Positions 20,973-33,382 of a stretch of 64,000 nt of DNA are shown piece by piece. Position 1 is the first letter of the stretch. The number at the start of each line of letters is the position of its first letter. Source of the DNA: an uncultured Actinomycetes bacterium (GTDB taxonomy: Bacteria; Actinomycetota; Thermoleophilia; Solirubrobacterales; 70-9); contig CAWAUA010000002.1 of assembly GCA_963785175.1 (NCBI GenBank), positions 43,443 to 107,442 of the forward strand, given 5' to 3'. The position numbers were made by a program, and so were the translations under genes. The notes beneath the pieces are model-generated. The model was not told where the DNA came from, ran no database searches, and was given only the letters and a program-made list of their open reading frames with translations.

Positions 20973-21602
20973 TTATGGCTCGATCAGCCCACGGCGGATC
21001 GCGTAGCGGACCAGCTCGACCCGGTCGCGCATGCCGAGCTTTCGCATCGCGTTGGCGCGGTGGTTCTCGACCGTCTTCTCGGAGAGGTGGAGGACCTCGG
21101 CGATCTGTTTCGTCGTGTGCGCCTCGGCGACCAGCTTGACGATCTCCTCCTCGCGCGGGGTCAGCTCCTCTTCGCCGCTGGAGCCGCGCTCGAGCACGTC
21201 CTTGATTAGCGTCCGCTGCGCCTCGGGGGTGAGGAACGGCTCGCCGCGCTCGACCGCCCGGATCGCCGCCAGCAGGTCGGTGTCGGCCTGCGCCTTCAGC
21301 ACGTAGCCGGAGGCGCCGGCTTTCAGCGCCTCGAACAGGTACCGCTCGTCGTCGTGCATCGAGAGGATCAGGACCGAGACCTCGGGCGCCTGTTTCTTGA
21401 TCTCCCGCGTCGCCTGCAGCCCGGTCAGCTTCGGCATTTTCACGTCGAGGATCGCCAGGTCAGGCCGCTCCCTAACGGCAAGGTCGCGGGCCTCGGCCCC
21501 GTCCCCGGCCTCGGCAACGACCTCGATGTCGGGTTGCCGCTCCAGCAGCAGTCGCAACCCTGAGCGGACGATCCCATGGTCATCGGCAATCAGCACTCTC
21601 AT
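20973..21602 (-). CDS. NarL/LuxR-family response regulator
   Basis: MRVLIADDH receiver, DLAILDVKMP phosphoacceptor region and a C-terminal LuxR HTH (LTPREEEIVKLVAEAHTTKQIA). Confidence 0.9.
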   Translation of the reverse strand: MRVLIADDHGIVRSGLRLLLERQPDIEVVAEAGDGAEARDLAVRERPDLAILDVKMPKLTGLQATREIKKQAPEVSVLILSMHDDERYLFEALKAGASGYVLKAQADTDLLAAIRAVERGEPFLTPEAQRTLIKDVLERGSSGEEELTPREEEIVKLVAEAHTTKQIAEVLHLSEKTVENHRANAMRKLGMRDRVELVRYAIRRGLIEP

Positions 21603-22467
21603 CGCGCCGAGTCTCCCGGCACGCCGAGTCGGACGGTGGTGCCGGCGTCGGGGCGGGACTCGATCGTCAGCTCGCCGCCGACCAGCAGAGCTCGCTCGCG
21701 CATGCCGCCGATCCCGAGGCCGCTCTCGGACTCGTCGAAGGCGAAGCCGCGGCCGTCGTCGGCGACCTCGAGGGCGACGCCGCCGTCCTTGTCGCGCCGC
21801 AGCAGCACTACGACCCGCTTCGCGCCGCTGTGGCGGGCGGCGTTGTTGAGCGCCTCCTGGGCGACCCGGTAGACGACCAGCTGGGCGTCGTCGCCGAGGT
21901 CGGAGAAGTCGCCGTCGACTTCGAGCTTCGCCTCGATCTCGCCGCGGGCGAGCTGCTCGACCTGGCCGCCGATCGCCGCCGCCAGGCCGAGGTCGTCGAG
22001 GGCAGTCGGCCGCAGTTGGCGGGCGAGAGAAAGGAGCTCGGTCATCGCCTGGTTGGCCAGCGCTTTGGTCTCGGCGATTTCGGCTTCGAGCTCCGGCGGC
22101 GCCGCCTCGCGCGCGGCCTCCAGCCGCAGCAGCAGCCCGGTCAGTGACTGGTTCACCTCGTCGTGGAGGTCGCGCGCCACCCGCGCCCGCTCCTCCTCCT
22201 GTGCGTGCAATGCGGCCGAGCCCGCCCGCCGCCGCTCGGCCTCAAGCCGCCGCATCATCCGCAGGAAGGCGAGCTCGATCCGCTCCACCTCCTCGGTCTC
22301 GCCGACCCCGTCGATCGAGACGGGGAGGTGGAGCCGGGGGAGGAAAGGTCGACCTTCTCCATCGCCTCGATCAGGTCCTCGAGCGGCCGCAGCCGCCGCC
22401 GCTCCCGGGTCAGGGCCAGGGACAGCGCGACGACGACCAGCACGAGCCCGATCACCAGCAAGGTCAT
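21599..22467 (-). pseudogene. HisKA_3-type sensor histidine kinase with an apparent 1-nt deletion (frameshift)
   Basis: TM+linker in one frame (track ORF 22255..22467, MTLLVIGLVLVVVAL...EAMEKVDLSS). The rest (LHLPVSIDG...LHDEVNQSL H-box, ATPase) is in the frame of track ORF 21599..22729. The junction is a G5 run at 22336-22340. Confidence 0.75.
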
Positions 22468-22580
22468 GGCGCAAGCCTAGGGGTCTTCCCCGAGCCGGTA
22501 GGGGGATTCCACCTATAGGCGAATCCGCGCTTTCGCCGCATACTTCTCCGACACCCTCGACTCTCAGGAGCGACCACTCG

Positions 22581-23441
22581 ATGACCACCACCAAGCAATC
22601 CACCTGGGGCGCGACCCTGCGGACCACGATCCTGATGGCCTCGCTCGGCGGTCTGCTCGTCGTGATCGGCGCCCTGATCGGCGGCCCCAGCACCGCCGGC
22701 CTCTTCCTTCTCATGGCCCTGGCGATCAACTTCTTCGCCTATTTCTTCAGCGACAAAATGGCGCTGAAAATGAGCCGGGCGCAGCCGATCGAGGAGTCGG
22801 AGGCGCCGCGGCTCTACCAGATCGTCCGCGAACTGACGACGCGTGCCGGCCTGCCGATGCCGCGCCTCTACATGATCCCCCAGGACCAGCCGAACGCCTT
22901 CGCCACCGGCCGCAACCCGAAGCACTCTGCCGTGGCGGTAACCCGCGGGATCACCAAGCTGCTCTCCGAGGACGAGCTGCGCGGCGTCCTCGCCCACGAG
23001 CTCACCCACATCCGCAACCGCGACATCCTGATCCAGTCGGTCGCCTCGGCGATCGGCGCCGCGATCACCTATCTCGCCTACATGCTGATGTGGTTCGGCA
23101 ACGACGACAACTCGCCGCTGAGCCTCGTCTCCGCGCTGGCGATGGTCATCCTCGCTCCGATCGCGGCGAGCATCATCCAGCTCTCGATCTCGCGCCAGCG
23201 CGAGTACGCGGCCGACGCCGGCGGGGCGGAAATCTGCGGCAACCCCGAGTCGCTGGCAAGCGCGTTGCTCCGCCTCGAGCAGGGAGCGGACGCGATGCCG
23301 ATGCAGGTCAACCAGGCGGCCGAGCCCCTCTACATCGTCCGTCCCTTCAAGGGCAAGGGTATCGCCGGCCTCTTCTCGACCCACCCGCCGATCGAGGAGC
23401 GGGTCCGCCGCCTTCGCCAGATGCGCCCCAGCTTCGACTGA
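22581..23441 (+). CDS. htpX: M48-family zinc protease HtpX
   Basis: Start at ATG 22581. HELTHIRNRD (HExxH), four TM segments and a C-terminal STHPPIEERV. Confidence 0.92.
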   Translation: MTTTKQSTWGATLRTTILMASLGGLLVVIGALIGGPSTAGLFLLMALAINFFAYFFSDKMALKMSRAQPIEESEAPRLYQIVRELTTRAGLPMPRLYMIPQDQPNAFATGRNPKHSAVAVTRGITKLLSEDELRGVLAHELTHIRNRDILIQSVASAIGAAITYLAYMLMWFGNDDNSPLSLVSALAMVILAPIAASIIQLSISRQREYAADAGGAEICGNPESLASALLRLEQGADAMPMQVNQAAEPLYIVRPFKGKGIAGLFSTHPPIEERVRRLRQMRPSFD

Positions 23442-23461
23442 CAGCGCACCTTCCCAGCAGC

Positions 23462-23497
23462 AAAACGGCCCCGGAACCCTTATCCGGGGCCGTTTTT
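23462..23497 (+). terminator. intrinsic terminator of htpX
   Basis: AAAACGGCCCCGG (23462-23474) pairs with CCGGGGCCGTTTT (23484-23496), followed by a T tract. Confidence 0.8.
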
Positions 23498-23503
23498 GTG
23501 CGG

Positions 23504-23511
23504 TCAGCGGA
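23504..23511. repeat. left copy of 8-bp target-site duplication TCAGCGGA
   Basis: Identical 8-mer in direct orientation at 28279-28286, immediately outside the terminal inverted repeats. Confidence 0.85.
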
Positions 23512-23531
23512 GGCACTGGGTCAGTTTGAAA
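23512..23531. repeat. left terminal inverted repeat (IRL)
   Basis: GGCACTGGGTCAGTTTGAAA is the exact reverse complement of 28259-28278. The tip fits GGnnnTG. Confidence 0.9.
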
Positions 23532-23642
23532 TGAAGCCCATAAGAGCTTGATTCCGCGCTACCGTCGCCGCCGCAATCGAGAAAGTGGCCCCGGCGAGCG
23601 GTGGAACGCCCCCGGGGCCGTGACAAAGGAGTGTGACCTCCC

Positions 23643-23903
23643 TTGCACGACAAGGCTACGTCAGCGACTACTGAAGGCGACTATGAGGAGGCCGTGCTGC
23701 GGCACGTCCTCAACTGGCAACCGACGATCCTGCGGCTCTGCGACCTGATCCGCGAACTCGCCAGAGACCCCCGCGAGTTCGCCCACCAAGACGCGGTAAG
23801 CGAAGCGGTGCGCGATCTGACGAAAGTCGGCCTGCTCCACCGCCAAGGCGAGTGCGTGCTGCCGACCCCGGCAGCCGTCTATGTCCGGGGGTGGGAGCTT
23901 TGA
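23643..23903 (+). CDS. small winged-helix-like protein (paralogue of 24125..24376)
   Basis: TTG start 12 nt after AAGGAG. LIRELARD...AVRDLTKVGLLHRQGECVLPT parallels ELAREIGG...LELITLGLLESHGSAVRPT in the second copy. Confidence 0.5.
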   Translation: MHDKATSATTEGDYEEAVLRHVLNWQPTILRLCDLIRELARDPREFAHQDAVSEAVRDLTKVGLLHRQGECVLPTPAAVYVRGWEL

Positions 23904-24121
23904 CCACGCAGGCCGTAGCGGCGCAGTTCGGTCGCAACCTCGCCGAGGCTCGCGGCTGGGAGGGGCTTTCTCAGACGCAGCTCGCCCAGCGCATCGCAAA
24001 GAGCCAGGCCGATGTGGCGCGCTGGGAGCTTGGCGAGCGGTGTCCCCGGCTGGATTACGTCGTGAAGCTTGCCGATGCGGTCGGGGTCCAGGTCCGGGAT
24101 CTGCTCTACGGGATCGAGTAG
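23900..24121 (+). CDS. XRE-family HTH transcriptional regulator
   Basis: TTG 23900 overlaps the upstream stop. LSQTQLAQRIAKSQADVARWELGERCPRLDYVVKLADAVGV is a classic Cro/CI-type HTH. Confidence 0.7.
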   Translation: MTTQAVAAQFGRNLAEARGWEGLSQTQLAQRIAKSQADVARWELGERCPRLDYVVKLADAVGVQVRDLLYGIE

Positions 24122-24124
24122 GCG

Positions 24125-24376
24125 ATGGCTCCGAGCGACAAGCGCAAACACTGGCCTGCCCATCGGATTCCCCTCCAGCGTCCGGTAATGGCCTTGGCGC
24201 TGGAGGTCTATCCGCACTGGCGAACGATCCCCGAACTGGCGCGCGAGATCGGCGGCAGCGGGGCGCTCACGCGCGCCACGCTGGAGTTGATCACCCTCGG
24301 CCTGCTCGAAAGCCACGGCTCGGCTGTCCGGCCAACCAAGGCTGTGGCCCACATGGAGCGCCTGAAGCTGCCGTAG
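24125..24376 (+). CDS. small winged-helix-like protein
   Basis: 83 aa with a wHTH-like TIPELAREIGGSGALTRATLELITLGLLESHG. Starts 3 nt after the XRE stop. Confidence 0.55.
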   Translation: MAPSDKRKHWPAHRIPLQRPVMALALEVYPHWRTIPELAREIGGSGALTRATLELITLGLLESHGSAVRPTKAVAHMERLKLP

Positions 24377-24386
24377 GCTCTGAGCA

Positions 24387-24608
24387 ATGGCGAAGCAGTC
24401 AAAGAAGCCCGCCGATCTCAACCGCCTTGCCGCCGCCATCGTTGGCGAGGCGACCGATGAGACGCCGCAGAAGCCGGAGAGCCAGCAGGCGCGCGCTGGA
24501 CGCGCTGGCGGCCAGAAGGGCGGGAAGGTTCGCGCCTCCAGAATGAGCGCCGAGGAACGCTCAGAGTCAGCGAGAAGGGCCGCTAAGGCGCGCTGGAAAG
24601 CCAAATAA
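24387..24608 (+). CDS. small basic protein, unknown function
   Basis: 73 aa, Lys/Arg-rich, ending GGKVRASRMSAEERSESARRAAKARWKAK. Confidence 0.5.
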   Translation: MAKQSKKPADLNRLAAAIVGEATDETPQKPESQQARAGRAGGQKGGKVRASRMSAEERSESARRAAKARWKAK

Positions 24609-24616
24609 GGGCCTGC

Positions 24617-24646
24617 TTGACCCTGTTATAAAAATGGTGTTATATT
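24617..24646 (+). promoter_or_regulatory. sigma70-type promoter, leaderless configuration
   Basis: TTGACC (24617-24622), 18-nt spacer, TATATT (24641-24646), and ATG 24653 only 6 nt downstream. Confidence 0.55.
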
Positions 24647-24652
24647 TTCGGC

Positions 24653-25240
24653 ATGGTCATCACCAAGCGCCACATCGACATTTTCGTCCCTGTCGCCGCT
24701 GGCATCGTCGCGTCTGACGCTAGGGCGATAGAGCGAGTCGAGGAGCGGAAGGGAATCTATGCCGGTCTCGATCCCCAGCCTGCTGCAGTCGCCAGGGCTA
24801 GCGAAAGGCGAGCACTCGTAGCCACGGACATGCGGCGCGATATCGCGCCCGAAGCTGGCTGGACGTTGATCGAAGACAACCTTGCCAATGGCGCATACGA
24901 GTGGCAGGGGCCTCGGGGGGAGTTCATCCGCCTTTCGAAGACCACCCCGGAATCCCGCAAGCTCGAGGCAGCGAAGTCCTTCCAGGGCATTCAGGAGGAG
25001 TTGATCGTGCCCCCGCCGCCGCCAGCTGGTCTGCGCGAAGAAATCCTGATCCGCCTGATGGGCGACCCGCTCAAAGACCCGACCGTTGACATCGTCTGCG
25101 TGGGCAGGAAAGGCGTTCGGTCTGCGGCGGTTTCGCTGGCAGCCATTGCGAAGGCGCAAACCGAGCGATTCCCCGGCAAAGCGCCAGTCAAAACGAGCGT
25201 CACGTTGCCGGGAACCCGCCGCGCCACCGAAACGGGGTAG
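24653..25240 (+). CDS. hypothetical protein (195 aa), no recognisable domain
   Basis: Clean ORF 4 nt upstream of the XRE-ImmA gene. Contains a PPPPP linker. I recognise no motif. Confidence 0.6.
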   Translation: MVITKRHIDIFVPVAAGIVASDARAIERVEERKGIYAGLDPQPAAVARASERRALVATDMRRDIAPEAGWTLIEDNLANGAYEWQGPRGEFIRLSKTTPESRKLEAAKSFQGIQEELIVPPPPPAGLREEILIRLMGDPLKDPTVDIVCVGRKGVRSAAVSLAAIAKAQTERFPGKAPVKTSVTLPGTRRATETG

Positions 25241-25244
25241 TCAC

Positions 25245-26351
25245 ATGCCCGACAGCTTCAACCCATACGCCGTGACCCTTGCGCGGCGCGCTAAGGGCAT
25301 GATGCAGGTGGACCTTGCGAATGCTCTTGGCGTAACGCAGGCTTCCGTGTCCCACTGGGAGAGAGGTCTTCGAGTGCCTGAGCCTGAGGTCTTGAACCGC
25401 CTCGCGGCCGAGCTGGATGTTCTGCCTCTCACTCTTACCGATGAGTCGATCGCTACGACCTCGCCCATGTTCAGGGCGACCGGCGTCAACAAAAAAAAGG
25501 ACGAGCGAAAGATCGAAGGCCGTACCGAGCTTGCACGGGTAGCGGCCGCTCGGATTCTGGAAGAAGTCGACGTTGCCCCCACCCTTGCTTGGCCGTCTGA
25601 GGAAGATCCTCTCGGCGACGATCCCGAAGAGGCCGCTGCCGCACTGCGGCGCGTCTGGCGAATCCCGAGTGGTCCGGTCGCGGACCTCACGACCTATATC
25701 GAGTCGGCTGGCGCGGTCATCCTGCGGGTGAACTTTGGCCATCCCAAAGTCGAAGCTGCATACGCCCACCCTCGCCGAGAGGCTAAGCGGTGGATTCTCA
25801 TGAACACCTTCATGACCGATGCCGCGCGATATCGCCTCAGCCTCGCGCACGAGCTTGGTCATGCCGCGCTACATCATTGGGACGCCTTCAACGTTCCGGA
25901 TGAGCGTGGTCGGGAGGTGCAGGCGTACCGGTTCGCACTCTCGCTGATGGTTCCTGCGGAGGATTTCATCCTCGACATCGCCCATACCCGTCGCAAGTGG
26001 GATGACTTTCTGCGACTACGGGATAAGTGGGGGATCTCTGCCGCCGCGCTGGCACGGCGGGCGCATGACCTCAAGCTTCTGAATGCCTCCGCCTACAAAT
26101 CAATCAACATCGAGCGCCGTTCACGCGGCCACTGGAAACACGAGCCGGGGGGAGAACAGTCAGTCGAGCAGCCCAGCATTTTCCCTGAAGCGGTCTCTGT
26201 TTTGCGGGGCCAGGCGGGATGGACCGATAAGCAGTTCTCGGAGGTCGCCGGCCTGCCGCTTAAACAGTTGGCCGACCTCCTCCCCGAAAACTTCACGGCC
26301 GAGGCCGAGGCTGAGCCGCCGCGTCGGGTGACGCTGCGCGTCGTCAGATAG
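25245..26351 (+). CDS. fused XRE HTH / ImmA-IrrE (COG2856, DUF955) zinc metallopeptidase
   Basis: N-terminal MMQVDLANALGVTQASVSHWERG HTH, central LSLAHELGHAALHH (HExxH) and downstream LSLMVPAEDF, typical of ImmA/IrrE. Confidence 0.8.
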   Translation: MPDSFNPYAVTLARRAKGMMQVDLANALGVTQASVSHWERGLRVPEPEVLNRLAAELDVLPLTLTDESIATTSPMFRATGVNKKKDERKIEGRTELARVAAARILEEVDVAPTLAWPSEEDPLGDDPEEAAAALRRVWRIPSGPVADLTTYIESAGAVILRVNFGHPKVEAAYAHPRREAKRWILMNTFMTDAARYRLSLAHELGHAALHHWDAFNVPDERGREVQAYRFALSLMVPAEDFILDIAHTRRKWDDFLRLRDKWGISAAALARRAHDLKLLNASAYKSINIERRSRGHWKHEPGGEQSVEQPSIFPEAVSVLRGQAGWTDKQFSEVAGLPLKQLADLLPENFTAEAEAEPPRRVTLRVVR

Positions 26352-26423
26352 ATCGTCGGTATTGATTCTGCCCGGTAGGTCCATCCTGTTTTTCCGTCTG
26401 ATCGCTTACGCATAATGGTCAGA

Positions 26424-27260
26424 ATGAACAGGCTGAGCACCGAGAAGCGGGCGCAGATCATCGGCTGCCTAGTTGAGGGCAACAGCATCCGCGCCACCGT
26501 CCGAATGACCGGCGCGGCCAAGAACACCATCGTCAAGCTCCTGGCCGACCTTGGCGAAGCCTGTGCTGAGTATCAGGACGGTGTCTTCCAAGACCTCCCC
26601 TGCTCGGTGGTGGAGGCTGACGAGATCTGGAGCTACTGCTACGCGAAGGCCAAGAACGTGCCCGAGCAGTTCAAAGGGACGCCGGGCTACGGCGACGTAT
26701 GGACCTTCACGGCGATCTGCGCGGATACCAAGCTGGTCCCCTCTTGGCTGGTCGGCGAGCGCACCAAATACGACGCGACCTACTTCCTCGAAGACCTGGC
26801 GAGCCGGATGGCCGGTCGCATCCAGCTATCGACGGACGGGCACTCGATGTATGAATCGTCGGTGCGGCAGGCGTTCGGCGTCGATGTTGATTGGGCCGTG
26901 ATCCAGAAGAACTACGCCTCAGACCCGAGCCAAGGTGGCAAATACAGCCCTCCTGTCTGCACCGGGACCAAGCGGCGGGCTATGAAGGGAGATCCCGACC
27001 CCGACCGGATCTCAACCAGCTACGTGGAGCGCCAGAACTTGACCATGCGAATCGGGATGCGGCGCTTCACTCGGCTGACGAACGGATTCTCGAAAAAGGT
27101 TGAGAACTTGTCGCATGCCGTCTCCCTCCACTTCATGCACTACAACTTTGCCCGGCCTCACAGGACGCTGAAGGAGCGCTACCCGCGCACGCCTGCGATG
27201 GCGGCGGGGGTCACCGATCACATCTGGTCGCTGGAGGAGATCGCGGCCTTGCTCGATTGA
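26424..27260 (+). CDS. IS1-family-like DDE transposase (single ORF)
   Basis: MNRLSTEKRAQIIGCLVEGNSIRATVRMTG HTH. DDE candidates are in VEADEIWSY, LSTDGHSMY and SYVERQNLTMR. Track start is 26415; ATG 26424 sits 7 nt after CATAAT. Confidence 0.85.
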   Translation: MNRLSTEKRAQIIGCLVEGNSIRATVRMTGAAKNTIVKLLADLGEACAEYQDGVFQDLPCSVVEADEIWSYCYAKAKNVPEQFKGTPGYGDVWTFTAICADTKLVPSWLVGERTKYDATYFLEDLASRMAGRIQLSTDGHSMYESSVRQAFGVDVDWAVIQKNYASDPSQGGKYSPPVCTGTKRRAMKGDPDPDRISTSYVERQNLTMRIGMRRFTRLTNGFSKKVENLSHAVSLHFMHYNFARPHRTLKERYPRTPAMAAGVTDHIWSLEEIAALLD

Positions 27261-27319
27261 TGAATGCCTTGCGCGTATCAAGGCAGATATCGTCTTGTGC
27301 CTAGCTCGGGAGGGCACTG

Positions 27320-28045
27320 GTGCTGTTCTTTATTGATGAGTCCTGGCAAAAAGTCGCTGGTCGAGAAATCGGTGCCCTCGGTGGGGTAGTGATCCCCGAG
27401 CCTCGATACAACAACTTTTGTCGTGAAGTTTTCGCCTTTAAGCGCGATGTTCTCGGTGCGACAGAGCTAATGGACAGCGAGCTGAAGGGCAATTCGTGCT
27501 TTGCCAAGAGCGCATTTCGGAAGCGAGATGCAACGGGGCGATCCAGGCTGCTCGAAAGCGCAGACAAGATGATCAAGTCCATCCAGACGCACAAAGGGAA
27601 AGTCTTCCTGATTTGGACCCACGATCCCACGCTATCTCTGCTCAACAATCCCAACTCCCGCGAACTGTCAAAGCCCTATAAGCAGCTTCTTTTTGACATG
27701 CGCGCATGGATGCGGGCCGAGGCTCCGAAAAACCGCGGAGCGCTGACCTTCGATCAGCGTCAGCATCGAGACGATGAGGCTGCCGCGTGCGCCATAAGCA
27801 ATTACCTCTTCCGCGCGCGCGGCGATTGGGCTAAGAGGTTCACGCAGATACCTAACTTCACGGCAAGCTCGATTAGCCCTGGACTCCAAGCCGCAGACCT
27901 AATGGTCTATCTGGGTCCCCACCTTGCCGATTCGACTGAGCGACCAGAGCTAGCGCCCTATGTTGAGCAAATGAAGGACATGGCATATGAGTTTCGAAGC
28001 GGCCGACAGCAACGCCGCCACAGGAGCGTGCGTCGAGTCGGCTGA
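27320..28045 (+). CDS. DUF3800-like protein
   Basis: GTG start. The N-terminal LFFIDESW matches the (Y/F)IDESG signature I associate with DUF3800. 241 aa. Confidence 0.55.
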   Translation: MLFFIDESWQKVAGREIGALGGVVIPEPRYNNFCREVFAFKRDVLGATELMDSELKGNSCFAKSAFRKRDATGRSRLLESADKMIKSIQTHKGKVFLIWTHDPTLSLLNNPNSRELSKPYKQLLFDMRAWMRAEAPKNRGALTFDQRQHRDDEAAACAISNYLFRARGDWAKRFTQIPNFTASSISPGLQAADLMVYLGPHLADSTERPELAPYVEQMKDMAYEFRSGRQQRRHRSVRRVG

Positions 28046-28258
28046 AGAGGAAAGGGGCCGGCGAGCTGAAGCTCTATGACGCCGTTAAGAGCGGCGTACC
28101 GACCCCTTGTGGTACGGCAAGATATCACTGGAGTTGATTCCGCGTATTAACGCGATGACCCTTGAGATGAGCCCCTGCAAATCGGCCTTTTATCGCTTCC
28201 GGGGTCCCTTCTCGGGGATCAATCGGGCGGGAGTTTCCCATTAGCTCAAGAGCCAAGT

Positions 28259-28278
28259 TTTCAAACTGACCCAGTGCC
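28259..28278. repeat. right terminal inverted repeat (IRR)
   Basis: TTTCAAACTGACCCAGTGCC is the exact reverse complement of IRL. Confidence 0.9.
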
Positions 28279-28286
28279 TCAGCGGA
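28279..28286. repeat. right copy of 8-bp target-site duplication TCAGCGGA
   Basis: Direct repeat of 23504-23511. Confidence 0.85.
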
Positions 28287-28289
28287 CTC

Positions 28290-28312
28290 TCGCTATACTT
28301 TTTGAAGTAAAG
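28290..28312 (+). promoter_or_regulatory. conserved 23-nt motif copy A (TCGCTATACTTTTTGAAGTAAAG) upstream of the moeZ-like gene
   Basis: 21/23 identical to 32369-32391 upstream of cysM. Contains the -10-like TATACT. Confidence 0.55.
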
Positions 28313-28339
28313 CTGATCCGGATTAGGGGATTTCGAGCC

Positions 28340-29515
28340 ATGGCCATCGACACGACGCGCGTTCAGACGATCGAGGAGATCGAACCTTTTGAGGCTGCCG
28401 AGGAGATCAACGGCGGCGACGTCGTCCTGATCGACACGCGCGAGCCGCACGAGTACCAGGAGGCCCACCTCGAGGGCGGCAAGCTGGTGCCGCCGGGGCT
28501 GCTCGGCGACGAAATCGCCACTGCGGCGCCCGACAAGTCGGCCCGCACGATCCTCTACTGCCGCTCCGGCAACCGCTCGGCGATCGCCGCCGCGCAGCTG
28601 CAGCGGCTGGGCTATGAGAACGTCGCCTCGATGAGCGGCGGCATCCTTCTTTGGCAGGAGCAGGGGCTGCCGGTCGTCGCCGCGCATGGGATGACCCCCG
28701 AGCAGCGCGAGCGCTACTCGCGCCACACGCTGCTGCCCGAGGTTGGGGTCGACGGCCAGGTGAAGCTGCTGAACGCGAAGGTGCTGCTGCTCGGCGCCGG
28801 CGGGCTCGGCGCCCCGACCGCGCTCTATCTCGCCGCCGCCGGCGTCGGGACGATCGGCCTCGTCGACGACGACGTGGTCGACGCCTCCAACCTGCAGCGC
28901 CAGGTGATCCACAACACCGAGCGGATCGGGATGGCGAAGACCGCCTCGGCCCGGATCTTCATCGAAGGGCTGAACCCCGACGTCAACGTCGTCGAGCACA
29001 ACGGCCGCCTCGACGCGAGCAACATCCTCGAGGTGATGGAGGACTACGACATCGTCGTCGACGGCGCCGACAACTTCCCCACCCGCTACCTGCTGAACGA
29101 CGCCTCGGTGCGGCTGCGCAAGCCGGTCGTCTCCGCCTCGATCCTCGGCTTCGACGGCCAGATCTCGACCTTCGTTCCCTTCGAGGGGCCCTGCTACCGC
29201 TGCCTCTACCCGACCCCGCCGCCGGCCGAGCTGGCGCCGAGCTGCTCCGCCAACGGAGTGCTCGGGGTGATGGCCGGGACGATGGGCACGCTGCAGGCCA
29301 ACGAGGTGATCAAGCTGATCCTCGGCGCCGGCAACCCGCTGATCGGCCGCCTGCTTCTCTACGAGGCGCTCGGCACCACCTTTACCGAGTTGAAGGTCCG
29401 CCGCGACCCCGACTGCCCGATCTGCGGCGAGAACGCCGAGGAGATCCCGGAGTCGGAGATGGGGCAGTTCCCCGACTACGAGCAGTTCTGCGCCGGAGCC
29501 GGCGGCGACCGCTAA
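28340..29515 (+). CDS. moeZ: rhodanese-ThiF/MoeB fusion, sulfur-carrier adenylyltransferase/sulfurtransferase (MoeZ-like)
   Basis: N-terminal rhodanese with YCRSGNRS active loop, then ThiF GAGGLG nucleotide loop and CYRC...CPIC zinc pairs. Confidence 0.85.
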   Translation: MAIDTTRVQTIEEIEPFEAAEEINGGDVVLIDTREPHEYQEAHLEGGKLVPPGLLGDEIATAAPDKSARTILYCRSGNRSAIAAAQLQRLGYENVASMSGGILLWQEQGLPVVAAHGMTPEQRERYSRHTLLPEVGVDGQVKLLNAKVLLLGAGGLGAPTALYLAAAGVGTIGLVDDDVVDASNLQRQVIHNTERIGMAKTASARIFIEGLNPDVNVVEHNGRLDASNILEVMEDYDIVVDGADNFPTRYLLNDASVRLRKPVVSASILGFDGQISTFVPFEGPCYRCLYPTPPPAELAPSCSANGVLGVMAGTMGTLQANEVIKLILGAGNPLIGRLLLYEALGTTFTELKVRRDPDCPICGENAEEIPESEMGQFPDYEQFCAGAGGDR

Positions 29516-32368: not shown

Positions 32369-32391
32369 TCGCTACACTTTCTGAAGTAAAG
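32369..32391 (+). promoter_or_regulatory. conserved 23-nt motif copy B (TCGCTACACTTTCTGAAGTAAAG) upstream of cysM
   Basis: 21/23 identical to 28290-28312. Ends 9 nt before ATG 32401. Confidence 0.55.
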
Positions 32392-32400
32392 GGTCGGCCG

Positions 32401-33367
32401 ATGGCGCACGAGCAACTACTCAACAAACCCTGTGGAGGTCGCTTCGGCAACATCGTCGAGTCGATCGGCAACACCCCGTTGGTGGAGCTGCCGCGTTTCT
32501 CGCCGAAGCCGGGCGTCCGCATCTACGCCAAGCTCGAGGGGCACAACCCGACCGGCTCGGTCAAGGACCGCGTCGCCAAATCGATGATCGAGGCGGCCGA
32601 GGCCGAGGGCGCGATCGAGCCCGGGCAGACGATCCTCGAACCGACCTCGGGCAACACCGGCATCGCCCTGGCGATGATCTGCCGCCGCAAGGGATACCCG
32701 CTGAAGGTGGTGATGCCCGACAACGTCACCGAGGAGCGGACCCAGCTGCTGCGCATGTACGGGGCGGAGATCGTCTACTCCGAGGGCGCCAAGGGCTCCA
32801 ACGGCGCGGTCGAGGTGGCGCTGGAGATGTCGCAGGACCCGAGCTTCTACATGCCCTACCAGTACGGCAACGAGGCCAACCCGCTCGCCCACTACAACGG
32901 CACCGCAGTCGAGATCCTCGAAGAGCTCGACGAGGTGACCGCCTTCGTCGGCGGCCTCGGCACCGGCGGCACCCTGATGGGCAACGGCCGTCGCTTTAAG
33001 GAGGTCAACCCGGAGACGCTGATCGTCGCCGCCGAGCCCAAACAGGGGGAGCTGGTCCAGGGCCTGCGCTCGCTCGACGACGGCTTCATCCCACCGATCA
33101 TCGACATCTCCCTGTTCGACCGGAAGATCATGGTCGACAACCGCGACGCGATCGTTTGGACCAAGAAACTGCTCGAGGAGGAGGGCGTCTTCGCCGGCGT
33201 CTCGGCCGGCGCGATCGCCGCGATCGCCCACCGCATCGGCGGCGAGCTCGACGTCCGGCAACGTCGTCTTCCTGATCCCCGACGACGGCTGGAAGTATCT
33301 CTCCTCGGGCGTCTACACCAAGCCGATCGAGGAGATCGAAAACTTGGATACCACCGTCTGGTGGTAG
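32401..33367 (+). pseudogene. cysM: CysM-type cysteine synthase with an apparent 1-nt insertion near the 3' end
   Basis: PLP Lys block NPTGSVKDR and TSGNTG loop. After ...GGELDV (about 33255) the conserved tail GNVVFLIPDDGWKYLSSGVYT...TTVWW continues in the +1 frame, ending at TAG 33365-33367. Confidence 0.8.
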
Positions 33368-33382
33368 GTCGGCCTTAGGGTC

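What the first reader, a model, noticed from the sequence alone, without database searches (positions are those of the whole stretch)
23504..28286. 4.77-kb IS1-type transposon with passenger genes: perfect 20-bp terminal inverted repeats plus 8-bp target-site duplication
Seen: GGCACTGGGTCAGTTTGAAA (23512-23531) is the exact reverse complement of 28259-28278. Immediately outside both ends is the same 8-mer TCAGCGGA in direct orientation (23504-23511 and 28279-28286). With roughly 4e9 position pairs in 64 kb and 4^20 possible 20-mers, about 0.004 such inverted repeats are expected by chance, before counting the flanking direct repeat. Removing the element and one TCAGCGGA copy joins the htpX terminator cleanly to the moeZ upstream region. 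The interior is visibly less GC-rich than the flanks. It holds one DDE transposase (26424..27260, IS1-like) in the middle, with 2.9 kb of cargo on its left and 1 kb on its right. Established, from my recollection of the ISfinder family summaries: IS1-family ends read GGnnnTG and make 8-9-bp duplications, and the ISMhu11 subgroup can reach about 4.6 kb with passenger genes. The tip here, GGCACTG, fits that. Inference: this is a recent insertion of a cargo-carrying IS1-family element. The cargo is entirely regulators and unknowns (two wHTH paralogues, XRE, a small basic protein, a 195-aa unknown, an XRE-ImmA/IrrE fusion, DUF3800-like), not the usual resistance or metabolic genes. It is therefore a candidate self-regulated or conflict-system-carrying transposon that I do not recognise as described.
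Basis: partly seen in the sequence, partly recalled or inferred. Interest (0 to 1): 0.85.

Follow-up and report, generated by a model that had tools for sequence, protein, structure and literature searches.

The report
Site-specific IS1-like transposon carrying defence cargo
This is a real 4.77-kb jumping gene of the IS1 family, one of a large and apparently undescribed group that lands at a fixed spot next to a thiol/sulfur-gene control motif and carries interchangeable toxin-antitoxin and defence-type genes.

Summary
In detail: there are perfect 20-bp inverted repeats (23512-23531 / 28259-28278) and an 8-bp duplication, TCAGCGGA. A related genome has the empty htpX-moeZ site.

The transposase aligns to E. 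coli IS1 InsAB' with an intact DDE triad. It lacks the IS1 zinc finger.

I delimited 73 relatives, almost all in Solirubrobacterales MAGs. They share the 18-bp end GGYRSTGGGTCAGTTTGA, and 62 of the 75 IR pairs first delimited have perfect 8-bp duplications. The same end occurs on a Mesorhizobium plasmid.

The conserved core is the transposase plus a roughly 73-aa basic protein, usually with an XRE protein and a putative wHTH protein. Two slots hold very variable cargo: methylase-nuclease fusions, SDH proteases, RosmerTA-like pairs, Fic, STAND, NYN and DUF433/DUF5615.

In the window, the cargo is a RosmerTA-like pair (a 195-aa unknown plus an RmrA-like HTH-ImmA protein) and a DUF3800 RNase-H-like protein.

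Unexpectedly, about 70-85% of elements sit exactly 14 nt from a motif, CTAYACTTTNTGAAGT. This motif precedes moeZ, cysM, trxA, iscA-like and HxlR genes. Elements occur in either orientation.

Cargo function, recency of the insertion and the targeting mechanism are inferred, not shown.

The parts
23504..23511 (.). Left copy of the 8-bp target-site duplication, TCAGCGGA
   Evidence: Aligns to the single 8-bp stretch of the empty site in L001.
23512..23531 (+). Left terminal inverted repeat (20 bp). The family-conserved core is the first 18 bp, GGYRSTGGGTCAGTTTGA.
23532..23642 (+). Conserved left subterminal leader. About 140 bp of the left end is alignable across the family, and it probably holds the promoter of the left module.
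   Evidence: The right end conserves only the inverted repeat.
23643..23903 (+). 86-aa protein, a paralogue of the 83-aa protein and a putative wHTH. It is an extra copy, present in about 16 of 75 elements.
   Evidence: No Pfam, NCBIfam or PADLOC hit.
23891..24121 (+). XRE-type HTH protein of the conserved left module. The start is uncertain: GTG 23891 or TTG 23900.
   Evidence: HTH_3 2.5e-11. Present in 60 of 75 elements. The JGI gene call in L001 is 76 aa.
24125..24376 (+). 83-aa putative wHTH protein of the conserved left module
   Evidence: Present in 65 of 75 elements. Only weak MarR/ArsR/Crp profile matches. The single-sequence AF2 model is poor (pLDDT 53).
24387..24608 (+). 73-aa basic protein (KKPADLN...GGxKGGKxRA...ARW). 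It is the most conserved accessory gene and is shared with alphaproteobacterial relatives.
   Evidence: Present in 69 of 75 elements. It is 50% identical to the Mesorhizobium loti protein annotated 'histone H1' and 38% to an Acidiphilium 76-aa protein (annotated CDS 231 nt), both next to IS1-like transposases. Alignment. 1037 homologues, all unnamed.
24617..24646 (+). Sigma-70-like promoter, TTGACC-18-TATATT with an extended TG, at the start of the left cargo cassette
   Evidence: A consensus match only.
24653..25240 (+). 195-aa protein of unknown fold, a candidate RmrT-type toxin or effector (left cargo slot)
   Evidence: Only 18 homologues. In all three contexts examined (98%, 91% and 44% identical homologues) it was followed by an HTH+M78 gene and then the IS1-like transposase gene. 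AF2 pLDDT 73, no PDB fold match.
25245..26351 (+). RmrA-like protein: an XRE HTH fused to an ImmA/IrrE Zn-peptidase (left cargo slot)
   Evidence: HTH_3 and Peptidase_M78. PADLOC RmrA 1.1e-50 over the full length. NCBIfam spr1629 repressor/antitoxin 2e-25, below its cut-off.
26377..26428 (+). Conserved region upstream of the transposase gene: CATAAT at 26411-26416, and an IR-like GGTCAGAATGAA at 26417-26428 overlapping the start codon
   Evidence: Consensus of 75 elements. The homology block starts about 27 bp before the gene.
26424..27260 (+). IS1-family DDE transposase, a single ORF of 278 aa (281 aa if it starts at 26415). It has an N-terminal HTH and no zinc finger.
27320..28045 (+). DUF3800 protein (RNase-H-like; DE motif in FIDES, QxxD motif in QAAD), in the right cargo slot
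   Evidence: PF12686 27.9 bits against a cut-off of 21. Motifs read from the translation against the description in PMC7736814. Unique among the 75 elements.
28046..28258 (+). Non-coding right-hand stretch of the cargo slot
   Evidence: No Rfam match. RNA fold z-score -0.37.
28259..28278 (-). Right terminal inverted repeat
28279..28286 (.). Right copy of the 8-bp target-site duplication, TCAGCGGA
28290..28310 (+). Target-associated host motif, TCGCTATACTTTTTGAAGTAA, upstream of moeZ. The core CTATACT starts 14 nt from the element end.

Best explanation
The 4,767-bp segment 23512-28278 is an intact cargo-carrying transposon of the IS1 family. It inserted between the htpX terminator and the moeZ promoter region and duplicated 8 bp.

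Shown:
- It has terminal inverted repeats, a duplication and a matching empty site.
- It encodes a DDE transposase homologous to IS1 InsAB'.
- It belongs to a family of hundreds of elements with the same 18-bp ends and 8-bp duplications.
- The family has a conserved core and two hypervariable cargo slots.
- Most family members lie exactly 14 nt (the 8-bp duplication plus 6 bp) from a conserved quasi-palindromic motif. This motif precedes thiol/sulfur genes (moeZ, cysM-like, trxA, iscA-like, HxlR), and elements occur in either orientation.

Inferred:
- The transposase binds the 18-bp ends through its N-terminal HTH and makes an 8-bp staggered cut at a fixed distance from the motif.
- An IR-like site overlapping the transposase gene's own start codon lets the protein repress itself, as InsA does in IS1.
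- The ~73-aa basic protein is a DNA-binding cofactor. It is the only accessory gene conserved from Actinomycetota to Alphaproteobacteria.
- The XRE and putative wHTH proteins regulate the left operon.
- The window's cargo is a RosmerTA-type toxin-antitoxin or abortive-infection pair (195-aa effector plus RmrA-like HTH-Zn-peptidase, with its own promoter) and a DUF3800 nuclease-like gene.
- Such cargo stabilises the element by addiction, pays its way by phage defence, or both.
For: Ends, duplication and chance level.

Empty site in L001.

L001's own element: IR GGTAGTGGGTCAGTTTGA and duplication TCGGGCCA.

IS1 homology: the DDE residues align, Pfam DDE_Tnp_IS1 is above its cut-off, and relatives are named IS1 family transposase.

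Family: 544 relatives among GTDB species representatives, of which 80 loci were fetched. The inverted repeat is conserved. Of 75 delimited elements, 62 have a perfect 8-bp duplication, each one different, and sizes run 2.3-8.0 kb with a median of 4.0 kb.

Core versus cargo.

Cargo families. Of 73 elements, 54 carry at least one recurrent cargo cluster, mostly defence- or TA-type.

RmrA-like match. RosmerTA is defined as a Zn-peptidase antitoxin plus a variable toxin.

The 195-aa/RmrA-like pair is conserved, and in all three contexts examined it lies immediately upstream of the IS1-like transposase gene.

Cross-phylum core: the Mesorhizobium loti plasmid element has the identical 18-bp inverted repeat, the duplication CGCTGGTG and a homologue of the basic protein.

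Target motif: in 62 of 176 element ends the motif is at offset 14 and nowhere else, and about 75 of about 88 elements match if variant motifs are included. Either element end can face the motif (31 right, 29 left). The motif's downstream genes are identified. The window holds a second, unoccupied motif at 32371, which is the very site occupied in L001. The moeZ site is occupied independently, in the opposite orientation, in L103 and L100.

The transposase is under purifying selection: dN/dS 0.10-0.16.
Against: No second copy of this exact element and no same-species empty site was found, so current mobility and recency are unproven.

The NCBIfam IS1 model scores below its cut-off (49.8 against 100), and the IS1 zinc finger is absent.

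The 195-aa protein matches no RmrT model, no Pfam family and no solved fold, so calling it a toxin rests on gene order alone.

The SDH-protease cargo and many singleton cargo genes have no defence annotation, and 19 of 73 elements have no recognised cargo family.

The identity of the motif (operator or promoter) and the factor that reads it are not established. Small elements without detectable wHTH or XRE genes still sit at the motif, so those proteins are not the target selector.
Confidence: 0.8

Rival explanations
1. The element is a self-regulated transposon. On this view the XRE-ImmA protein and its partner are not a defence or TA module. They are a stress-sensing switch for the element's own transposase, in the way ImmR/ImmA control ICEBs1.
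For: The ImmA family is named after an ICE anti-repressor. In every context of the 195-aa family the HTH-M78 gene lies immediately upstream of the transposase gene. The element also encodes a separate XRE protein that could be a protease substrate.
Against: Only 11 of 73 elements carry an RmrA-like gene, and it can sit in either orientation, so it is not part of the transposition core. The cassette has its own promoter-like site. The transposase gene has its own conserved upstream region in all elements. The full-length match is to RmrA models.
Confidence: 0.15
2. The element is an old, fixed resident, effectively domesticated and no longer mobile. On this view the transposase is kept for another role and the slots act as a chromosomal hotspot for defence genes.
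For: Copy number is low, mostly one or two per genome. There is no second copy of this element. Transposase dN/dS is 0.10-0.16 between copies at the same site in different species. Copies at the same site with the same duplication carry different cargo (L020/L050 and L043/L060).
Against: At least five different gene neighbourhoods are occupied, in both orientations. The moeZ site is occupied in opposite orientations in the window and in L103/L100 but is empty in L001, which needs repeated transposition. Inverted repeats and duplications are intact nearly everywhere. Because the target position is fixed, a shared duplication does not prove shared ancestry. The transposase of L020/L050 is more diverged (82%) than their flanks (88-93%).
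Confidence: 0.15
3. A plain ~1-kb IS1-like insertion sequence landed inside a pre-existing gene cluster, and the 4.77-kb boundaries are coincidental or composite.
For: The transposase gene is internal and has sharp homology boundaries.
Against: There is no inverted repeat next to the transposase gene apart from a partial IR-like site at its start. The whole 4.77 kb is absent from the empty site. The same outer ends bound every relative, whatever its cargo.
Confidence: 0.02

Closest known systems
IS1 (E. coli IS1A, InsA/InsAB')
   Same: The DDE transposase is homologous from the HTH to the C-terminus, with an aligned D, D, E. The ends start GGnnnTG (IS1A: GGTGATG / GGTAATG). The duplication is 8-9 bp. 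There is a likely self-binding site at the transposase promoter (inference).
   Different: It is a single ORF with no -1 frameshift. It has no N-terminal zinc finger and carries a ~33-aa insertion between the second D and the E. It is 4.8 kb against 768 bp. It has a conserved accessory module and two cargo slots. Its target position is precise, whereas IS1 has only a loose preference (my recollection).
IS1-family single-ORF / ISMhu11 subgroup and 'tIS' (IS with passenger genes), ISfinder classification
   Same: From my recollection of the ISfinder tables, this subgroup has a single-ORF IS1-type transposase, reaches about 4.6 kb and carries passenger genes. The term tIS is confirmed in PMC7986276.
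   Different: I had no reference sequence or description, and 'ISMhu11' occurs in no paper of the library. The conserved basic protein, the defence-type cargo and the target motif are not part of what I recall for that subgroup.
Tn7-like transposons
   Same: They insert site-specifically next to a conserved host sequence at a fixed distance. Their cargo is rich in defence systems (PMC8649781 abstract).
   Different: The machinery is unrelated. There is no TnsA/B/C/D or TniQ here, only one small DDE transposase. The elements are 10-fold smaller. Orientation relative to the target is random here, whereas Tn7 is orientation-specific (recollection).
RosmerTA (RmrT/RmrA) toxin-antitoxin defence systems
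   Same: Both are two-gene pairs in which an HTH + ImmA-type Zn-peptidase antitoxin accompanies an unrelated, variable partner. Several different partner families are seen next to the RmrA-like genes in this transposon family.
   Different: The 195-aa partner matches no RmrT model. Neither toxicity nor defence has been tested.
Tn3-family transposons with embedded toxin-antitoxin pairs
   Same: TA modules sit next to the transposition genes and are proposed to be part of the transposition module (PMC7157771 title).
   Different: The transposase family and size are different. Here the TA or defence module is one of many interchangeable cargos.

Membership tests
IS1 family | DDE transposase homologous to IS1 InsAB' with a conserved catalytic D, D, E | tested here: met
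   hhalign of the 22-sequence family profile against InsAB' gives probability 96%, E 3.8e-9 and 35% identity over 162 columns. D69, D141 and E205 align to the IS1 motifs DEQW, TDG and ERxN, and all three are invariant.
IS1 family | Curated HMM thresholds | tested here: inconclusive
   Pfam DDE_Tnp_IS1 scores 28.0 bits against a cut-off of 24.1, but only over profile positions 83-125. NCBIfam transpos_IS1 scores 49.8 bits against a cut-off of 100. Sources name the relatives 'IS1 family transposase'.
IS1 family | Terminal inverted repeats beginning GGnnnTG | tested here: met
   The window has GGCACTG and the family has GGYRSTG. IS1A has GGTGATG / GGTAATG. The general rule is from my recollection of ISfinder.
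IS1 family | 8-9-bp target-site duplication | tested here: met
   It is 8 bp in the window and in 62 of 75 relatives.
IS1 family (classical) | InsA zinc finger and a programmed -1 frameshift between two ORFs | tested here: not met
   The alignment starts at InsA residue 54, after the CxxC...CxxC motif, and the gene is one uninterrupted ORF. This is compatible with the single-ORF subgroups (recollection).
ISMhu11 subgroup of IS1 | Sequence relationship to ISMhu11 and its relatives | not testable with these tools
IS1595 family | IS1595-type transposase with an N-terminal zinc ribbon | tested here: not met
   NCBIfam transpos_IS1595 scores 18.5 bits against a cut-off of 75, weaker than IS1. No zinc ribbon is present.
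RosmerTA | Antitoxin with an HTH and an ImmA/IrrE Zn-peptidase domain | tested here: met
   HTH_3 9.5e-13 and Peptidase_M78 4.2e-14. Fourteen PADLOC RmrA models match, the best at 1.1e-50 over residues 4-355.
RosmerTA | Adjacent co-transcribed toxin gene | tested here: inconclusive
   The 195-aa gene ends 4 nt before the RmrA-like gene, and the pairing is conserved down to 44% identity. There is no RmrT model hit and no fold match.
RosmerTA | Toxicity neutralised by the antitoxin, and anti-phage activity | not testable with these tools
   This needs an experiment.
DUF3800 (PF12686) | Pfam model above its cut-off, with an N-terminal DE motif and a C-terminal QxxD motif | tested here: met
   27.9 bits against a cut-off of 21. 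FIDES and QAAD are present in the translation. The motifs are as described in PMC7736814.
Tn7-like transposons | TnsA/TnsB/TnsC core and a TnsD/TniQ target selector | tested here: not met
   No such domains occur in any of the eight proteins. The resemblance is functional only.

The most novel reading that the evidence does not exclude
This is an undescribed, cross-phylum subgroup of IS1 in which a minimal DDE transposase, together with a conserved ~73-aa basic protein, homes to a fixed position 6 bp from the operator or promoter motif of a thiol-stress/sulfur regulon. On this reading the regulon's handful of motif copies act as landing pads for small, interchangeable defence and toxin-antitoxin cassettes. 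It would be a miniature, single-transposase analogue of Tn7-type site-specific defence carriers.
Probability: 0.4. Interest if true: 0.8.

Novelty: new variant of a known kind. Interest (0 to 1): 0.66.

Why it matters
IS1 is one of the oldest textbook insertion sequences and is thought of as a minimal element with little target choice. This family shows three things.

1. An IS1-type transposase can carry 2-7 kb of cargo.
2. It keeps a conserved accessory module across phyla.
3. It inserts with base-pair precision beside a specific host regulatory motif.

That gives a compact natural system, with one small transposase and 18-bp ends, for studying how a DDE enzyme acquires sequence-specific targeting. 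It could also serve as a site-specific insertion tool for high-GC Actinomycetota.

The two cargo slots work as a discovery resource. In the 73 elements surveyed, recognisable defence or TA modules (methylase-nuclease fusions, RosmerTA-like pairs, Fic, STAND, NYN, HEC-04-like ATPases) sit beside many unannotated genes. The unannotated ones include the 195-aa protein, the SDH-protease pair and 89 singleton ORF clusters, and they are candidates for new conflict systems.

Every insertion sits just upstream of thiol/sulfur genes, so the family may also change the expression of that regulon.

Tried and rejected
- Exact look-ups of the window's transposase, MoeZ and ThiS in the contig collection found nothing on record. 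The source genome is not there, so no same-strain empty site could be obtained.
- A metagenome scan for the reconstructed 26-nt empty site gave 0 hits.
- A metagenome scan for the exact 20-bp inverted repeat gave 8 contigs. None is the same element. One (L100) is another occupancy of the moeZ site, in the opposite orientation.
- An Rfam scan of 23300-28500 looked for a DUF3800-associated RNA or other RNA. It returned only one chance-level hit. The 213-nt stretch after the DUF3800 gene folds no better than shuffles.
- The AF2 model of the 195-aa protein has pLDDT 73, and a Foldseek search against the PDB found no match below E 0.1.
The profile search against PDB sequences gave only weak MarR/ArsR/Crp hits.
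- I tested the idea that the element's putative wHTH proteins mimic the host HxlR regulator and select the target. It is not supported: hhalign gives probability 4%, and elements lacking detectable wHTH or XRE genes still sit at the motif.
- I first read the same-duplication pairs (L020/L050 and L043/L060) as proof of cargo replacement in situ. I withdrew that, because a fixed target position makes independent insertions give the same duplication.
- A tblastn search of the phage collection with the basic protein found no match.
- Literature searches for ISMhu11, and for IS1 with defence cargo, found no description of this family. Two attempts to open the ISfinder review papers failed.

Full report
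**1. The observation**

The 20-mer GGCACTGGGTCAGTTTGAAA lies at 23512-23531, and its exact reverse complement lies at 28259-28278. With up to three mismatches these are the only two matches in the window, and none occurred in 100 shuffles.

TCAGCGGA abuts both ends in direct orientation. The 8-mer occurs four times in the window, about as often as expected, so it is the position that counts.

The segment is 61.5% GC against 65-69% in the flanks, and the right-hand part is 55.9%.

All eight genes are on the + strand with short gaps. The Pfam and NCBIfam results are as follows.
- An XRE HTH protein is confirmed.
- An HTH_3 + Peptidase_M78 fusion is confirmed.
- The transposase scores above the Pfam DDE_Tnp_IS1 cut-off but below the NCBIfam IS1 cut-off.
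- A DUF3800 protein is confirmed.
- Four proteins have no family hit.

**2. It is a transposon with a matching empty site**

A 94%-identical transposase (P0003) lies on JGI metagenome contigs L001-L010. L001 comes from a related genome and also holds thiS-moeZ-htpX with nothing between moeZ and htpX. The window's left and right flanks both align to that intergenic region and overlap by exactly the 8 bp of the duplication.

L001's own element lies elsewhere, between a PALP gene and an ABC-transporter operon. It is 4,011 bp long, ends in GGTAGTGGGTCAGTTTGA on both sides and is flanked by the 8-bp duplication TCGGGCCA.

**3. IS1 membership**

I rebuilt E. coli IS1A InsAB' from NC_000913 and compared it with a 22-sequence profile of the transposase family. 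hhalign gives probability 96%, E 3.8e-9 and 35% identity over 162 columns.

The motifs align as follows: VEADEIW to AEMDEQW, LSTDGHSMYES to WMTDGWPLYES, and YVERQNL to RIERHNL. D69, D141 and E205 are invariant.

The alignment begins after the InsA zinc finger, which this protein lacks, and there is a ~33-aa insertion before the E. The gene is a single ORF. The IS1595 model is a much weaker match.

The ends fit the IS1 form GGnnnTG, as IS1A itself shows. ISMhu11-subgroup membership could not be tested.

**4. A large family**

A scan of one genome per GTDB species found 544 relatives. The best 80 loci (75-94% identity) are almost all Solirubrobacterales/Thermoleophilia MAGs.

The 18-bp end GGYRSTGGGTCAGTTTGA is present on both sides of the transposase gene in nearly all of them. 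Of 75 delimited elements, 62 have a perfect 8-bp duplication, different at each site. Sizes run from 2.3 to 8.0 kb with a median of 4.0 kb.

The protein database holds more than 8,000 homologues.

The family reaches other phyla. Transposases about 50% identical lie on alphaproteobacterial plasmids.
- The Mesorhizobium loti p_1 element is 3,370 bp long. It has the identical 18-bp end and the duplication CGCTGGTG.
- The Acidiphilium element ends in GGTAGTGTCTCAGTTTGA.

**5. Core and cargo**

tblastn of the window's proteins against 75 elements gave these counts.

| Protein | Elements with a match (of 75) |
|---|---|
| Transposase | 75 |
| 73-aa basic protein | 69 |
| 83-aa putative wHTH | 65 |
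| XRE | 60 |
| 86-aa paralogue | 16 |
| HTH-M78 | 12 |
| 195-aa protein | 2 |
| DUF3800 | 1 (the window only) |

The usual order is IR, wHTH, XRE, basic protein, [slot 1], transposase, [slot 2], IR.

DNA homology to other elements stops at the stop codon of the basic protein. It resumes about 27 bp before the transposase gene and stops again at its stop codon. The left 140 bp is conserved, whereas the right end keeps only the inverted repeat.

The basic protein is also found in the Mesorhizobium element (annotated 'histone H1', 50% identity) and in the Acidiphilium element (38% identity). It is therefore the one accessory gene that travels with the transposase across phyla. It has 1,037 detectable homologues, none of them named, and its alignment is.

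Upstream of the transposase gene all elements share about 40 bp. This includes CATAAT and GGTCAGTATGAA, a near copy of the inner half of the inverted repeat that overlaps the start codon. I read this as a self-repression site by analogy with InsA, which is an inference.

**6. What the cargo is**

The slots of 73 elements yielded 217 ORFs, which fall into 121 clusters, 89 of them singletons. Some short ORFs may be spurious, because I called genes with a simple GC3 rule.

The recurrent families are listed below.

| Cargo family | Elements |
|---|---|
| N6_N4_Mtase, 11 of them fused to Mrr_cat | 12 |
| SDH-type ClpP-like protease with a small partner | 12 (also in Acidiphilium) |
| RmrA-like HTH-M78, with at least three different partner families | 11 |
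| Fic/DOC | 6-7 |
| NYN | 5-6 |
| P63C with a Cro-like HTH | 5 |
| STAND/NACHT NTPases | 5 |
| DUF433 + DUF5615 | 4 |
| AAA_21/AAA_15 ATPases matching PADLOC HEC-04 | 3 |

Of the 73 elements, 54 carry at least one of these.

**7. The window's cargo**

The protein at 25245-26351 matches fourteen PADLOC RmrA models, the best at 1.1e-50 over residues 4-355. RosmerTA is defined as a Zn-peptidase antitoxin paired with a toxin of variable family, and it has been validated as a TA and as an anti-phage system.

The 195-aa gene ends 4 nt before the RmrA-like gene and is preceded by TTGACC-18-TATATT. It has only 18 homologues. In the contexts I fetched (98%, 91% and 44% identity) it was followed each time by a 365-368-aa HTH-M78 gene and then the IS1-like transposase. 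In L016 the pair is inverted as a unit.

Its AF2 model (pLDDT 73) matches no solved fold. Calling it a toxin is therefore an inference from gene order.

The DUF3800 protein has the DE and QxxD motifs described for this RNase-H2-like family, which serves as the effector of type VII retrons. DUF3800 genes are known to be accompanied by structured RNAs, but I found none here.

**8. Site-specific insertion (not in the finding)**

I reconstructed 65 empty sites. These show a conserved motif, (C)GCTAYACTTTNTGAAGTRA, on one side of most insertions. Of 176 element ends with enough flank, 62 have the motif, always with its CTAYACT starting exactly 14 nt from the element end, which is the 8-bp duplication plus 6 bp.

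Two relaxations raise the share to about 75 of about 88 elements:
- relaxing the motif to CTAYA-N7-AAGT;
- adding the variant CTTCAGTAAGTGAAG, which is found at the same offset.

Either end of the element can face the motif (31 right, 29 left).

The motif is rare. The window has two copies against 0 in shuffles.
- One is at 28292, next to the element and 47 nt before moeZ.
- The other, at 32371, is unoccupied and lies 30 nt before the PALP (cysM-like) gene. It is the very site occupied in L001.

Genes downstream of the motif in all loci are MoeZ (ThiF + Rhodanese), PALP, thioredoxin, an IscA-type Fe-S protein, a TrxB-like reductase and an HxlR-family regulator. I infer that the motif is the promoter or operator of a thiol/sulfur regulon, possibly an HxlR-type operator. 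That inference is untested.

The moeZ site is occupied in the opposite orientation in L103, by a related element with the same 195-aa/RmrA-like cargo and the duplication GTCATCGC. It is also occupied in metagenome contig L100. It is therefore a recurrent hotspot.

Small elements without detectable wHTH or XRE genes still sit at the motif. The putative wHTH profile is unrelated to HxlR. The target reader is therefore more likely the transposase, the basic protein or a host factor.

**9. Age and turnover**

L020/L050 and L043/L060 have syntenic flanks, the same duplication and different cargo. Because the target position is fixed, this could mean cargo replacement in situ or independent insertions at the same pad, and I cannot tell which. 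For L020/L050 the transposase is more diverged (82%) than the flanks (88-93%).

Transposase dN/dS between these copies is 0.10-0.16 at dS 0.63-0.74, so the gene is kept functional.

For the window's copy, neither a twin nor a same-species empty site was found. 'Recent' therefore remains unproven.

**10. Verdict**

The element is a bona fide IS1-family cargo transposon.

It is not a one-off. It belongs to a large, apparently undescribed subgroup with a conserved basic-protein partner, two slots of defence and TA-type cargo, and base-pair-precise targeting beside a thiol-regulon motif.

I found no description of this family in the searchable literature, but ISfinder itself could not be consulted.

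Noticed in passing
window 32369-32391: A second, unoccupied copy of the target motif (CGCTACACTTTCTGAAGTAAAGG) lies 30 nt upstream of a PALP/cysM-like gene (32401-33378). It is the orthologue of the site occupied by the element in L001.
   Followed up: yes
L016:9801-10585; L029; L032; L034; L052; L062; L085: Several loci hold extra inverted-repeat copies. These include a ~785-bp IR-bounded, MITE-like unit directly abutting the full element in L016, two elements side by side in L029, and doubled right ends in L032 and L034. Doubled ends could be a route for capturing new cargo.
   Followed up: no
L102:1747-5871: A contig carries the closest relative of the window's cargo (98% identical 195-aa protein). 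It has an IS1595-family transposase gene where the left module should be, and no left inverted repeat was found. A methylase-Mrr fusion gene and a trxB-like gene with a variant motif lie upstream. It looks like an element disrupted by another IS.
   Followed up: no
L093:5889-6727 (Acidiphilium multivorum plasmid): A RES toxin / Xre-type (MbcA/ParS) antitoxin pair lies immediately outside the right inverted repeat of the IS1-like element. It is adjacent to the element, not inside it.
   Followed up: partly
L001:6542-7642; L093:3755-4893: An SDH-type ClpP-like serine protease with a small (56-68 aa) downstream ORF recurs antisense, just upstream of the transposase gene, in 12 Solirubrobacterales elements and in the Acidiphilium plasmid. 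It has no PADLOC hit and may be an unrecognised conflict or maintenance module.
   Followed up: partly
L039 and L048, upstream of the HxlR-family gene: Two motif variants sit side by side upstream of an HxlR regulator gene: CTTCAGTAAGTRAAGC, then GCTACACTTGSTGAAGC. Eight elements are inserted 14 nt from the first variant. This suggests the motif family is the operator set of that regulator.
   Followed up: partly
window 20973-22729 (- strand): A HisKA_3-type sensor kinase and a LuxR-type response regulator lie next to htpX. They are syntenic with L001 and unrelated to the element.
   Followed up: no
OY969581.1 (L053 and L076); CAWBIJ01 (L084 and L089): Single genomes can hold two family members with different cargo. 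For L053 and L076 the two copies lie at different motif sites (a CTATACT-type site, and a CTACACT-type site upstream of an IscA-like gene).
   Followed up: partly
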